Shown one piece after another: positions 34,144 to 60,195 of a stretch of DNA of 64,000 nt. This DNA comes from Octopus vulgaris (Eukaryota). Positions within the stretch are counted from its first letter, which is position 1. Each line of letters starts with the position of its first letter. The translations under genes were made by a program, and so were the position numbers. The notes below the pieces were generated by a model that saw nothing but the letters and a program-made list of their open reading frames with translations, searched no databases and had not been told where the DNA came from. Where the stretch lies: assembly GCA_951406725.2 (NCBI GenBank), contig OX597840.1:3472001-3536000 (forward strand), read 5' to 3'.

Positions 34144-34318
34144 GGGAGAGTTTACGAAAAAAATAGAAGACGAAGACAGGTGGTGTACAAAACAAACAGA
34201 TGTATTGGTATAACGCTCAGGAATAGAAAAAGTCTATTACGTTTCGAGCCTACGCTCTTCTACAGAAAGGGACACAGAAAACACGAGGAGAGAAAATGTG
34301 TGTGGTGGCCAACGATTT
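34144..34318 (-). mobile_element. ~175-bp (TA)n-flanked Penelope-like fragment (family P) with minimal hammerhead-like motif at 34234-34269
   Basis: cttt-CTGTAGA-A-GAGCgtagGCTC-GAAA-CG-TA-atag; homologous to 43541, 46218, 60087 and a 3' piece at 33367-33432. Confidence 0.7.
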
Positions 34319-34596
34319 ATCATGGCGATATATATATATATATATATATATATATATATATACGTGTATATATATATATATATATATATATATATATATA
34401 TATATATACATATATATATACATATATACATATGTCTGCCTGTGTGTATGTGCGTGCGTGTGTATTTGTGTGCATGTATGTGTGCGTGCATGTGTGTGTT
34501 TGTTTGTGTGTGTGTGTGTGTGTGTAGGTGTTTGTGTGTAAGTCTGCTGTGATGATCCTGCAAAGAAACATACAAAATATCTAAAGGCATATTTTC

Positions 34597-34680
34597 TCCT
34601 TCTGAAGAGATTTTGCTCAGAAAATATGAATTTAATATTTAATTAAATTCACTGTCTATAATTGAAACAGCTGTAAGGGA
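34597..34680 (+). ncRNA. Type I hammerhead ribozyme, core intact
   Basis: Helix I tcctt/aggga; CTGAAGA 34602-34608; long helix II with inner GAATTTAAT/ATTAAATTC hairpin; GAAA 34664-34667; palindromic CAGCTG; UA cleavage site after 34675. Confidence 0.72.
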
Positions 34681-34913
34681 TAATGATCGATTTGTTGCTG
34701 ATAATAAACTCTTATTAACTTCAAAATCTCCATTTTCTTCTTTTTCCTTTGCAGAATTTTTAATTACAGTTTATATACAAACGTATTATTTTAAAGAAAT
34801 CAATTCCACACCAAAATATTAGGTATTGAACCAGTATTTCGTTATATGACATCATCTCTTCAGGAGGCTAACATAACCTGTAACTGAAATATATATATAT
34901 ATATATATATATA

Positions 34914-35260
34914 CTAGCACTTGAGCCGGCAACGCTGGGTCATAGTGCTAGTGCATGCATATACAGCTGCGTGCGTGCACACATACACACGAGTACTGTC
35001 CAAATCTCCGACCAATCACATACAGCTAGCTGGCATTCAATTGGCGTATCAAGTTTCGGTCATTTTGATTGGCTTTTGGACAGAAAATTCACAAAAATGT
35101 CACTTCTGTCGATTTTTTAATGGCTTTGCGGAGTGACTGGGGGAAGGTAAAGATGTGGACGACCACCCTTGGACGGTTTTGAATGACCATAGAAAATGTA
35201 AGCCCTCTAACTGAATAACTGTTGATGTGTATAAACGACACACACATTTTGCCGTTCATA
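34914..35260 (-). mobile_element. Non-autonomous Helitron
   Basis: 3' hairpin containing GGCAACGC then CTAG|T on minus strand (34914); 5' region TATATATGAACGGCA matches that of the 36277 element; 5' TC not visible. Confidence 0.65.
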
Positions 35261-35295
35261 TATATATATATATATATATATATATATATATACTG

Positions 35296-35626
35296 GGGCA
35301 GGTGTAGCTGTGTGGTGAGAAGCTTGCTTCACAACCACAGGGTTCCAGGTTCAGTCCCACTGCGTGGTACCTTGGGCAAGTGTCTTCTACTATAGCCTCA
35401 GGCTCACCAAGGGCTTGTGAGTGAAATTGGTAGAAGGAAACTGAAAGAAGCCCGTCGTCACCCACCATTGATTGACAATGGGTGATCGTGTGTTTACGAC
35501 CCCGATCCGACCAAAGAGGACGATAGAATAAGTACTACGCTTACAAAGAATAAGTCCTGGGGTCGATTTCTTCGACTAAAGTCGGTGCTCCAGCGTTACC
35601 GCAGTCGACTGCAAAAAGTAAAAGAA
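35296..35626 (+). mobile_element. SINE family B with internal deletion
   Basis: Head, core and tail colinear with 7011-7410; central microsatellite missing. Confidence 0.85.
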
Positions 35627-35637
35627 TAATATATACA

Positions 35638-35937
35638 TTGTTTGTTCCTCCTTGAGCCATGCCTGGCTCATAAGGGCCGGTTTCCCGGTTTTCTTGGCGT
35701 ATAGGTTCCCCACTTGGACAGGACGCCGGTCCGTCGCAGGTGAGCTGCAAGATGCAGGAGGAAAGTGTGAGAGAAAGTTGTGGCGAAAGAGTCTGCAGAG
35801 GTTTGCCATTACATTCTGGAGCAGCGTAGAGCTTAGCCGTTTCGCTCATATACACACACATCGCCCGGTCTGAGATTCGAACCCGCGTTCTCTCGACCGC
35901 GACTCCGCTGCTCAAGTCACTAGGCCACGTGCCTCCA
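35638..35937 (-). mobile_element. tRNA-Arg-like SINE (OR2-like), full length
   Basis: GGAGGCACGTGGCCTAGTG...GGTTCGAATCT head related to 22740; distinct tail ending GGAGGAACAAACAA. Confidence 0.85.
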
Positions 35938-57220: not shown

Positions 57221-57871
57221 TTTGGTTGTAGCGGTGTTGGCGATATCTATATATGGTAATTTAATTACTTAAATCTGTTCTTCAAATATTAAAATATTAA
57301 TCCTTAACAAATTACAATATATATATGCATCTTAACACACATACACACAGATGGCATACGTACATACATACATACATACATGCATACATACATACAGACA
57401 GACAGACAGACATACATACATGCATACATACATACAGACAGACAGACATACATACATGCATACATACAGACAGACAGACAGACAGACAGACAGACATACA
57501 TACATACATACATACATACACACATACATACATACATACACACATACATACATACATACATACATACATACACACATACATACATACATACATACATATA
57601 TACATGCATACATACATACATACATACATACACACATACATACATACATACATACATACATACATACAGACAGACAAACAGACAGACAGACAGATAGATA
57701 GATAGACAGACAGACAGACGGACAGATGGATGGACAGACAGACAGCTAGATAAATACATAGATAGATAGATAGATAGATAGATAGATAGAGAGAGAGAGA
57801 GAGAGAGAGAGAGAGAGAGAGAGAGAGAAGGGTAGACGGACGGATGGATCGATCGATAGGTAGGTACATAT

Positions 57872-58278
57872 GTTTCGTTATTGTCCACACATGGCTGAAC
57901 ACAAATACAAAGGGACACAAATACAGGGGACAAAATACGAAGTAGAGCTTTTTGGGGGAGGAAAGAGAATGAAAAAAGAAGAAAAGGAAAAGGTGGTACA
58001 AATTCGATCAAAAGGGATCGTTAAAAAGGGTGATCAATAGGGATCGTGTATCACAGATAGATAGATAGATAGATAGATAGATAGATAGATAGATAGATAG
58101 ATAGATAGATAGATAGATAGATAGATAGAAAGTTAGATACATACAGACATACGTAGATAAGTTTCTTTATTGGCCACACAGGGCTACACGCAGAAGGGAC
58201 AAGTTACAAGGTAGAGCTTTTCTTTTGGGGGAGAAAAAAAGAAAAAAAAAGGTTTTCGATCAAAAGGGATCGTAAAAG
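57872..58278 (-). mobile_element. Two related retroposon 3'-end-like segments among (GATA)n tracts
   Basis: 57872-58056 and 58161-58278 share GTAGAGCTTTT..GGGGGAG..TTCGATCAAAAGGGATCGT; minus-strand end TAGCCCTGTGTGGCCAATAAAGAAAC. Confidence 0.55.
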
Positions 58279-58868
58279 GGAAAAAAAAGGAAAAGAAAAA
58301 AGAAAAGAAAAAAAGAAAAAAGGAAAAGAAAAAAGAAAAGAAAAAAAGGAAAAGAAAAAAGAAAAGAAAAGAAAAAGGGAAAAAAGAAAAGAAAAATGAA
58401 AAAAGAAGAAAAAAGAGGACGTAGATAGATAGATAGATAGATAGATAGATAGATAGATAGATAGATAGATAGATAGATAGATAGATAGATAGATAGATAG
58501 ATAGTCACGCTTCTGTACGTGTTAGATAAAAGCTGGTTAAGCCAGTTTATTACTTAACCTTTCGTAATATGCGGCTTCAAACAGAATATGAATACTCGGA
58601 TCCCCGAGTAATAAAAATAAATAACTAATAACTAATCATGCCGTTAAGTACAAATTGTAAGTACTCTTCACTTCTGTTTGGACCATCCAGTGCATTCTAA
58701 GACAAAGCAGCTCAGTTCAAATCTCGAATATGGGTTAAAATATGTCAATCGTTAAGTTATTTGAGAAACTCTTAAACGTTATGAACATTTGGACCTGTAA
58801 TATTCTAAACTTTAACCAAAAGGACTTTATGTAAGAAGGATATGAAATAATTAAGTGATTTCAGCTCT

Positions 58869-59279
58869 CTCTTTTACTCTTTTACTTGTTTCAGTCATTT
58901 GACTGCGGCCATGCTGGAGCACCGCCTTTAATCGAGCAACTCGACCCCGGGACTTATTCTTTTGTAAGACCAGTACTTATTCTATCGGTCTCTTTTGCCG
59001 TACCTCTATGTTACGGGGACGTAAACACACCAGCATCGGTTGTCAGGCAATGCTAGAAGGACAAACACAGACACACAAACACACACATACATATATATAC
59101 CTATACATATATACGACGGGCTTCTTTCAGTTTCCGTCTACCAAATCCACTCACAAGGCTTTGGTCGGCCCGATGCTATAGTAGAAGATGCTTTGCCCAA
59201 GGTACCACGCAGTGGGACTGAACCCGGAACCATGTGCTTGGTAAACAAGCTACTTACCACACAGCCACTCCTGCGCCTT
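58869..59279 (-). mobile_element. SINE family B, full length, flanked by ~90-bp direct repeats
   Basis: Repeats 58778-58868 and 59280-59369 differ by one substitution and one 1-nt indel. Confidence 0.93.
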
Positions 59280-59667
59280 GTTATGAACATTTGGACCTGT
59301 AATATTCTAAAATTTAACCAAAAGGACTTTATGTAAGAGGATATGAAATAATTAAGTGATTTCAGCTCTGGAAGAAAATAATGTGTTTAGATATAAATTG
59401 ATGAGTAGAGCAAAATGGAAGACGCGTGGAATAGGTTTGAGAGTTCTTAATGGAAATGAGTAGAATCTATTCAATATAGTTAAGAGCACGTTAGTGTCAT
59501 GTGGTCAGTCGGAGATCGGAAGACAGATATTCGTTTCCATGATCAAATTTCATGAAAATCTGAGTATTTTCTTAACAAAAAATTCTAGATGTGTATGTAT
59601 GTATGTATGTATGTATGTATGTATGTATGTATGTATGTATGTATGTATGTATGTATGAATGTATGTA

Positions 59668-60066
59668 TCTTTATATATAAAAGAGAGGTTGTGTGTCTGT
59701 CTCCTACGATTTAGATTCCTAACTACTCCCACATTTTGCGGTGCAATGTAACCAAAACCGGGTATCTTATAGTCGTGATTCATATCGAGCCCTTCTGGGT
59801 ATTAGCGCGCGTCTACGTTGAGTCTACGATTTAAAAAAAATTTACCATCATTTTTTTCCCATTTTAATGCATTTTTTTCGCTATTATATAATGGAAGTAA
59901 CTCTCTAAAAATGTCTACGATGAGTCAACGATTTAAAAAAAAAATTACCATCATTTCTTTCCCATTTTTAATGCATTTTTTTGCCAATTTTTGGCTATAA
60001 CTCTCTAAAAATGCTTATATAGTTATTTCCCTTACAAACCCGAGCAACGCCGGGCGATACTACTAG
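59668..60066 (+). mobile_element. Non-autonomous Helitron, complete, with internal ~100-bp tandem duplication
   Basis: A|TCTTTATATATAAAA start; CCCGAGCAACGCCGGG hairpin; CTAG|T; duplication ~59811-59912 / 59913-60011. Confidence 0.85.
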
Positions 60067-60086
60067 TATATATATATATATATATA

Positions 60087-60195
60087 GTTGAAACTTACAG
60101 AAAAACAAAAGACGAAGACAGGTACATAGTTTGACGCTCGGGAAGTTGAGAAAGTACTTTACGTTTCGGGCTTACGCTCTTCAGCAGAAAGGAGC
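60087..60195 (-). mobile_element. Family P fragment, hammerhead-like motif at 60157-60191
   Basis: cttt-CTGCTGA-A-GAGCgtaaGCCC-GAAA-CG-TA-aag; (TA)n both sides. Confidence 0.7.

What the first reader, a model, noticed from the sequence alone, without database searches (positions are those of the whole stretch)
34144..60195. Family P carries a hammerhead-like core that never has A6
Seen: four copies read CTGTAGA, CTGTCCA, CTGTGAA, CTGCTGA followed by A-GAGC-GTAG-GCTC-GAAA-CG-TH and a cttt/aaag-type helix I. Position 6 is T,T,T,C, so the substitution looks ancestral rather than decay. Established: A6 is near-invariant in hammerheads. Inference: either a natural core variant that still cleaves, or a family that multiplied with a catalytically dead fold kept as an RT-recognition signal.
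Basis: partly seen in the sequence, partly recalled or inferred. Interest (0 to 1): 0.72.

Follow-up and report, generated by a model that had tools for sequence, protein, structure and literature searches.

The report
Active retrotransposon hammerhead fixed for U6
The four repeats are leftover ends of a recently multiplying Penelope-like jumping gene whose hammerhead-shaped RNA motif has U in place of the normally fixed A6 in about 95% of over 22,000 matching copies; it is likely a strongly slowed self-cutting RNA, but cutting is untested.

Summary
Observation confirmed. The four copies are 5'-truncated 3' ends of a Neptune-type Penelope-like retrotransposon (PLE), inserted in (TA)n. Genome-wide, position 6 is T in 21,686, C/G in 701 and A in 319 of 22,706 exact-context cores; the A6 copies inspected are scattered mutants. 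Full-length 4.5-kb units (98-99.7% identical, RT plus GIY-YIG frame open in 6 of 11) carry U6 in both terminal repeats. Across seven subfamily consensuses 0 of 30 constrained hammerhead columns change versus 51 of 115 flank columns; only N7 and H17 vary. Related families and metagenome PLEs have A6, so U6 is old in this lineage but derived. Copies end about 100 nt 3' of the predicted cut, so templates were intact there, and copies starting at the cut are not in excess. Best reading: a detuned, conditional minimal hammerhead (0.5); rival: a catalytically dead fold kept for protein binding (0.35). A sister family (13,387 copies) mostly carries U4C instead. Not found in my literature searches; this scan noted the U6 variant before on other DNA. 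New variant of a known kind; cleavage untested.

The parts
34143..34330 (-). Copy 1: 5'-truncated 3' end (pseudo-LTR) of the PLE between (TA)n tracts; A7 subfamily
   Evidence: 90-94% identical to 41 other scored genomic places
34234..34269 (-). Minimal type I hammerhead motif of copy 1: CTTT, CTGTAGA (U6), bulged A, GAGC/GTAG/GCTC, GAAA, CG, T-A (H17), ATAG (one helix I mismatch)
   Evidence: sequence
43542..43747 (-). Copy 2: old, decayed copy; core CTGTCCA (C3 at 43662; U6, G8C)
   Evidence: nhmmer E 1e-19 to the family profile; sequence
46218..46384 (+). Copy 3: G7-type copy; core CTGTGAA (C3 at 46263; U6, G8A, G12A)
   Evidence: nhmmer E 3e-31; sequence
60087..60197 (-). Copy 4: short copy; core CTGCTGA (C3 at 60187; C6), deletion in the 3' tail
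   Evidence: nhmmer E 2e-22; sequence
33366..33432 (+). Fifth fragment: 3' tail only, truncated downstream of the hammerhead motif, between (TA)n tracts
   Evidence: nhmmer E 3e-10; blastn

Best explanation
The repeats are truncated 3' ends of a recently amplifying Neptune-type Penelope-like retrotransposon whose terminal-repeat hammerhead motif has carried U6 through all sampled subfamilies, and this motif is likely a strongly slowed ribozyme that would cut only as a dimer or with help from the element's protein. Shown: element identity, U6 fixation, conservation of the rest of the core, and that inserted copies run through the motif to an end about 100 nt 3' of the predicted cut. Inferred: reverse transcription is primed in (TA)n on that 3' tail, so fast cutting would sever the priming end from the ORF and a slow core is tolerated or favoured. 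Predicted: U6 removes A6's U-turn contact and, in the isolated core, pairs with A15.1, tying up the ACGU palindrome needed for the dimer. Untested: any cleavage.
For: Tandem 4.4-4.6 kb units with RT (PF00078, E 1.4e-7, above cut-off) and weak GIY-YIG (E 0.007, below cut-off) and a CSRPRCRTC linker; all 14 long-frame loci fetched (L121-L134) have CTGTTGA, 11 of them in two repeats. 0 of 30 constrained columns vary among seven subfamily consensuses versus 51 of 115 flank columns, Fisher p 5e-7; only N7 (T,G,C,A) and H17 (A,T) vary. Contigs of four runs from four other organism labels show, within the 36-nt motif, alternative letters at 3% or more only at N7, a loop CpG and H17. C3-G8, G12, A13, A14, A15.1-U16.1 are all kept; C or G at position 17 occurs in only 210 matches. 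Helices I and II covary across 22 P, Q, older-family and metagenome motifs: 83% paired, 41 double changes, 0 of 500 shuffles (relatedness inflates this). Precedent: natural A6C is slow in Mg2+ but active in Mn2+ (PMC7151607); the Anolis PLE hammerhead cuts only with protein and uncut RNA is the main template (PMC11167929). U6-A15.1 pairing probability 0.45-0.98 in isolated natural U6 cores, absent in natural A6 cores.
Against: No cleavage data exist for this motif. Deep mutagenesis of another hammerhead found low activity for all CUGA changes except the C3/G8 swap (PMC9901934), and minimal PLE hammerheads are already weak with A6 (PMC4209133). Copies starting at the predicted cut are not in excess: 31 per 3,344 versus 41 per 4,651 at a control CG|TA site, p 0.90; on inspection about 7 independent truncations among 30 loci versus 7-8 among 20. 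The rod fold that U6 permits would also leave N7 and H17 free, so that signature does not prove catalysis. The U6 pairing is weak in 150-nt context (mean 0.14, median 0.02). U6 itself is not shown to be selected: 56% of flank columns also stayed unchanged, and C6 reaches 21 of 100 in one old subfamily. Many clustered copies were fetched by patterns that fix the core.
Confidence: 0.5

Rival explanations
1. The motif is catalytically dead. U6 turned it into a rod-like hairpin (helix I, U4-G5-U6 paired with A15.1-C-G, tandem GA pairs, helix II) that is kept as a binding, folding or packaging signal for the element's protein.
For: No excess of copies starting at the cut; A6 point mutants arise (319) yet no A6 subfamily amplified; isolated U6 cores are predicted to form the rod; hammerhead mutants did not affect PLE insertion in vitro (PMC11167929); Naiad PLEs multiply without canonical hammerheads (PMC8557442); a sister family amplified with U4C.
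Against: C3, U16.1, the bulged 9b A and a non-G at 17 are kept although a plain rod would not need them (few positions, weak test); the rod is poorly populated in longer context; the same pairing register is not gained by U4C in the sister family.
Confidence: 0.35
2. U6 is a near-neutral accident fixed in a single master lineage, and the stretch is conserved for a DNA-level reason such as the pseudo-LTR promoter or endonuclease recognition.
For: Subfamilies look like one succession (divergence from consensus 13% down to 1.6%), so one fixation suffices; PLE pseudo-LTRs hold promoters (PMC6765202).
Against: Variation confined to N7 and H17 and compensatory changes in both helices between families fit an RNA fold, not a DNA motif.
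Confidence: 0.1
3. U6 is a fully active core variant, compensated by an unseen tertiary contact or by a different metal ion.
For: A6C keeps near-normal rates in Mn2+ (PMC7151607); loop II GTAG and the flanks of helix I are conserved.
Against: Fast cutting would leave few intact templates, yet all 12 tandem units examined pass through two intact motifs; mutagenesis data for CUGA.
Confidence: 0.05

Closest known systems
Minimal type I hammerheads (min-HHR) in pseudo-LTRs of metazoan Penelope-like elements (Cervera and De la Pena 2014, PMC4209133)
   Same: Position in both flanking repeats of an RT plus GIY-YIG element; short helix I, bulged base between 9 and 10.1, G10.1-C11.1, palindromic 15.2/16.2, NUH site; many solitary truncated copies. 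The Acropora Neptune row of their Fig. S3 has the same layout.
   Different: All 56 rows of their Fig. S3 have A6 (their descriptor demanded the core); the only core variant in the parts I read is U3-A8. Here U6 is fixed in the youngest, intact elements.
Bcep176 phage hammerhead, natural A6C (Perreault 2011, PMC3088659; Naghdi 2020, PMC7151607)
   Same: Natural loss of A6; low but detectable activity.
   Different: A single phage sequence with C6, against a U6 state inherited through at least seven subfamilies and over 21,000 matching copies of an animal retrotransposon.
PAc (Poseidon of Anolis) protein-assisted hammerhead (Frangieh 2024, PMC11167929)
   Same: Insertions end downstream of the motif; uncut RNA is the template; no ends seen at the cut site.
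   Different: Poseidon clade, motif overlaps the ORF start; here the ORF starts about 750 nt after C3 and the core lacks A6.
Non-LTR retrozymes (bioRxiv 10.64898/2026.07.22.740005)
   Same: Short hammerhead-bearing PLE derivatives, some in tandem (L005 holds a run of about 200-nt units).
   Different: Window copies are solitary, variably truncated ends of an autonomous element; motif is minimal and non-canonical.

Membership tests
Penelope-like element (EN+) | Single ORF with RT and C-terminal GIY-YIG | tested here: met
   PF00078 E 1.4e-7 above cut-off; PF01541 E 0.007, below cut-off, YIGQTG motif near the C-terminus; 396 relatives at E<=1e-30 among 7,991 scored
Penelope-like element (EN+) | Partial-tandem arrangement forming pseudo-LTRs | tested here: met
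   12 of 20 fetched 10-kb stretches hold two cores 4.37-4.57 kb apart, with a partial 3' copy upstream of the unit
Neptune clade | CX2-5CxxC linker between RT and endonuclease; microsatellite targets | tested here: met
   CSRPRCRTC; (TA)n flanks; feature described in PMC8557442. Nematis shares the linker.
Neptune clade | RT phylogeny with reference Neptune elements | not tested
   No named reference sequences were on hand; the clade label rests on architecture only
Minimal type I hammerhead | Helices I and II around the core, palindromic helix III stub, 9b bulge, G10.1-C11.1 | tested here: met
Minimal type I hammerhead | Core C3 U4 G5 A6 N7 G8 A9 / G12 A13 A14 A15.1 / U16.1 H17 | tested here: not met
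   All positions met except A6, which is U in 21,686 of 22,706 exact-context matches
Minimal type I hammerhead | Site-specific self-cleavage after H17 | not testable with these tools
   Only contigs, no raw RNA reads; genomic proxy showed no excess of copies starting at the cut
Rfam hammerhead families | Score at or above gathering threshold | tested here: not met
   No Rfam match in L122; none among the 150 best of 595 weak window matches listed

The most novel reading that the evidence does not exclude
The most successful PLE lineages of this genome have detuned the hammerhead's uridine turn twice independently (A6U in family P, U4C in most of family Q), and U6 acts as a latch that pairs with A15.1 and keeps the ribozyme off until the element's own protein or a partner RNA opens it: a natural protein-gated hammerhead that core-based searches cannot see.
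Probability: 0.2. Interest if true: 0.8.

Novelty: new variant of a known kind. Interest (0 to 1): 0.52.

Why it matters
What hammerheads do in Penelope-like elements is open: they may process precursor RNA, be conditional, or be passengers (PMC8557442, PMC11167929). Here a young element with open frames has kept every hammerhead feature except A6 through a long succession of subfamilies, and canonical, U6, C6 and U4C cores sit side by side in one genome, which makes the question directly testable. If U6 cleaves, the natural core consensus widens and censuses that demand CUGANGA miss very large families. If it does not, this is a clean case of a ribozyme fold kept after loss of catalysis.

Tried and rejected
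A6 sub-lineage in the oldest subfamily: suggested by 3 of 5 similar copies, rejected by an upstream-anchored count (A 5, C 21, T 74 of the first 100 of 119). A6 is still about 1.8 times as frequent as the U4-to-A control (319 versus about 180, from 35 of the first 100 of 519), so a small older A6 component or a context effect is not excluded. Convergent latch in family Q: not supported, G5-C15.2 pairing about 0 for both C4 and U4 copies. RT fragment beside L055 as the family's own ORF: rejected, 24% identical to the intact protein. Excess of copies beginning at the cut: not found; a first pattern fitted only older subfamilies, gave 5 matches and was not used. Monomer folding: five of six z-scores between 0.26 and 0.93 and one at -1.61, no unusual stability. 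Expression and RNA ends: no RNA holder listed; contigs of four guessed-RNA runs showed no splice or back-joint at the motif and cannot show ends. Rfam gave only microsatellite-driven miRNA matches among those listed. Literature: 'hammerhead ribozyme'+'A6U' 3 papers, none on this by title or abstract; 'hammerhead'+'CUGU'+'retrotransposon' 0; searches showed no report of a U6 PLE hammerhead in their listings. Lunse et al. 2017 (about dimeric PLE hammerhead variants) was not held, so a prior mention there cannot be excluded; supplements of most papers were not read.
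Full report
Observation. The window lies at G000:C27:3472001-3536000 in a 2.8-Gb, microsatellite-rich animal genome; that it is octopus-like is my inference, not a tool result. The four cores are as described, with C3 at 34265 (-), 43662 (-), 46263 (+) and 60187 (-) and T,T,T,C at position 6. Only copy 1 matches the quoted downstream string exactly; copies 2 and 3 have also lost G8, copy 3 G12. A tail-only fifth fragment lies at 33366-33432. The numbering is right: the extra A after A9 is the 9b bulge typical of PLE hammerheads (PMC4209133).

Genome-wide state of position 6. 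With the rest of the core and helix II fixed, the genome holds 319 matches with A6, 22,387 with another base, 701 of them C or G (94 of the first 100 C), leaving 21,686 with T; reversed control patterns gave 0. The 30 A6 loci fetched fall into all the different subfamilies. The control change at U4 has 519 matches, 35 of the first 100 to A, so A6 is about 1.8 times that background. In copies not fetched by a core pattern, position 6 was T 50, C 3, G 1, A 0 of 54, and T 12, C 1 of the 13 from 400 kb of untargeted stretches plus the window (the 54 include many near-identical young copies). The oldest subfamily sampled is also U6: T 80, C 11, A 8, G 1 of the first 100 of 841 and T 74, C 21, A 5 of the first 100 of 119. 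Contigs of four runs labelled organisms C, D, E and F showed no alternative letter at 3% or more at position 6; how related those organisms are is not given.

What the element is. A GIY-YIG-like fragment upstream of one core retrieved 190 matches among 150 scored of 5,542 candidates, over 100 with identical scores and frames up to 1,200 codons. Of 20 stretches fetched, the 14 chosen for long frames or tandem spacing all carry CTGTTGA, 11 in two repeats. [quoted passage not shown] Eleven tandem units are 98.0-99.7% identical; 6 have an unbroken frame of 1,059-1,079 aa from the start codon, 5 are frameshifted (chosen for long frames, so not a random share). All 12 units examined end at CTTCCCG followed by TTATATA, about 100 nt 3' of H17, and the same TTATATAT is present inside the element, which suggests priming by annealing to nicked (TA)n (inference). 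The window copies are 5'-truncated ends of this lineage; tblastn found no ORF remnant in the window.

Selection on the fold. K-means on 207 family P copies gave seven clusters of 10 or more members, 1.6% to 13% from their consensus (three clusters of 3-4 members left out). Among the seven consensuses 0 of 30 constrained columns vary against 51 of 115 flank columns (p 5e-7; 32 of 88 ungapped downstream columns, p 2e-5); the only variable motif columns are N7 and H17, and the four loop columns are constant. Many members were fetched by core patterns, but one search gives the same picture without that bias. C or G at 17 totals 210 matches, with about half G. Between families helix I changes CTTT/AAAG to GTTT/AAAC, and 22 motifs give 41 double-sided changes (the control ignores relatedness and G10.1-C11.1 was fixed by the pattern).

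Polarity. Family Q, homologous at its 3' end, keeps A6 in 98 of 100 but has C4 in 71. Other families have A6 in 78 of the first 100 of 386. Three of eight metagenome loci encoding relatives show a hammerhead motif near the ORF, all with A6; one of them also gave a weak U6-like match farther away in unrelated-looking sequence. All 56 published representatives have A6. U6 is therefore derived and was fixed before the oldest family P subfamily I sampled. No tree was built.

Does it cut? Not testable here. For: every other catalytic feature is kept; natural A6C is slow but active, and much better in Mn2+ (PMC3088659 passages; PMC7151607); a PLE hammerhead can be protein-assisted (PMC11167929). Against: CUGA changes gave low activity in deep mutagenesis (PMC9901934 passages); copies that begin at the predicted cut are no commoner than at a control CG|TA site 13 nt upstream (31 per 3,344 versus 41 per 4,651, p 0.90). 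By eye, 10 of 30 test loci were true truncations (7 events, four loci being one duplication) against 7-8 of the 20 control loci fetched out of 41; the script's own flags (13 and 10) include indel artefacts. Folding predicts that in isolated 36-nt natural cores U6 pairs with A15.1 and G5 with C15.2 (0.45-0.98; at most 0.10 for G5-C15.2 in A6 cores), but in 150-nt context the mean is 0.14 (90 U6 copies) versus 0.00 (19 A6 copies), and U4C in family Q does not gain that pairing. This rod would also tolerate changes at N7 and H17, which keeps the dead-fold rival alive.

Mechanism. Shown: a young autonomous PLE with a conserved U6 hammerhead-like fold, copied from RNA that was intact across the motif. 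Inferred: because reverse transcription starts 3' of the cut, fast cleavage would cost the element its template, so a slow core is tolerated or favoured. I put 0.5 on slowed, conditional cleavage, 0.35 on a dead fold used as a protein signal, 0.1 on DNA-level conservation and 0.05 on full activity. A cleaved and re-ligated circular template would also give copies that read through the motif and is not excluded.

Novelty and sources. It works like, and sits where, a minimal PLE hammerhead does, but fails the A6 criterion. My searches found no report of a U6 family; Lunse et al. 2017 could not be read. Seen: PMC4209133 main text parts 1-2 of 4 and supplement parts 1-2 of 3; bioRxiv 2026.07.22.740005 parts 1-2 of 5; PMC7151607 and PMC11167929 parts 1-2 of 4; PMC13282606 part 1 of 3 (no 'hammerhead' occurrence in the listing); passages of PMC8557442 (plus one supplement search), PMC3088659, PMC6765202 and PMC9901934. 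The U-turn contacts of A6 are from PMC3088659 and general knowledge. Earlier notes of this scan reached the same reading on other pieces of this genome and on another genome (consulted after my reading was formed); they are not independent support. Added here: genome-wide counts with controls, the subfamily conservation test, the negative cut-site test and the U4C sister family. Verdict: real, new variant of a known kind, interest 0.52.

Noticed in passing
G000 genome-wide; L211-L240: Sister family Q (helix II GAGC-TCC-GCTC, helix I GTTT/AAAC), 13,387 exact-context matches; of the first 100, 71 have C4 (CCGA), 26 U4, 3 A4, and 98 keep A6. Many copies start near ATGTGACC; its autonomous partner was not found.
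   Followed up: partly
L141-L170: Other hammerhead-like families with different helix II: 386 matches versus 13 control, 78 of the first 100 with A6; several share a downstream AGCGTTAA-like motif with family P.
   Followed up: partly
L161 (G000:C1:110252697, also C1:198267202 and C3:70825446): Three near-identical U6 motifs with an unrelated helix II and flanks; possibly a separate repeat with U6.
   Followed up: no
old subfamily, L290-L319: C6 in 21 of the first 100 copies, all with U7: a probable small C6 sub-lineage, the same change as the Bcep176 variant.
   Followed up: partly
L005; G000:C28:23646242-23646879: Head-to-tail runs of about 200-nt family P units separated by short (TA)n, which could allow dimer folding.
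   Followed up: no
L002-L030 and window copy 1: Many short copies begin at or near CGCCATGAT, about 60-65 nt upstream of C3: a preferred truncation point or a short non-autonomous form.
   Followed up: no
all family P and Q copies, about 15-30 nt 3' of the motif: A second GAGCG could pair with the 3' strand of helix II and GAAA, giving an alternative fold; helix II probability is only about 0.3 in 150-nt context.
   Followed up: partly
L121-L127: In the six open copies the frame runs past the endonuclease end into the pyrimidine-rich tract (1,059-1,079 aa), whereas in L133 it stops just after it; C-run length varies.
   Followed up: no
window 5445-5993 and 21703-22253: Two three-copy tandem arrays of a 184-nt unit in opposite orientations, 89% alike; SINE-like (recalled).
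   Followed up: no
window 53802-54287 (+) and 17174-17755 (-): Open frames with a FLDAPGGRGKTF helicase-like motif and a CxxC...H zinc-finger-like motif; probably Helitron and LINE remnants (labels recalled).
   Followed up: no
L055, L236, L165: Fragments of more distant PLE reverse transcriptases (24-29% identity) next to short hammerhead-bearing copies.
   Followed up: partly
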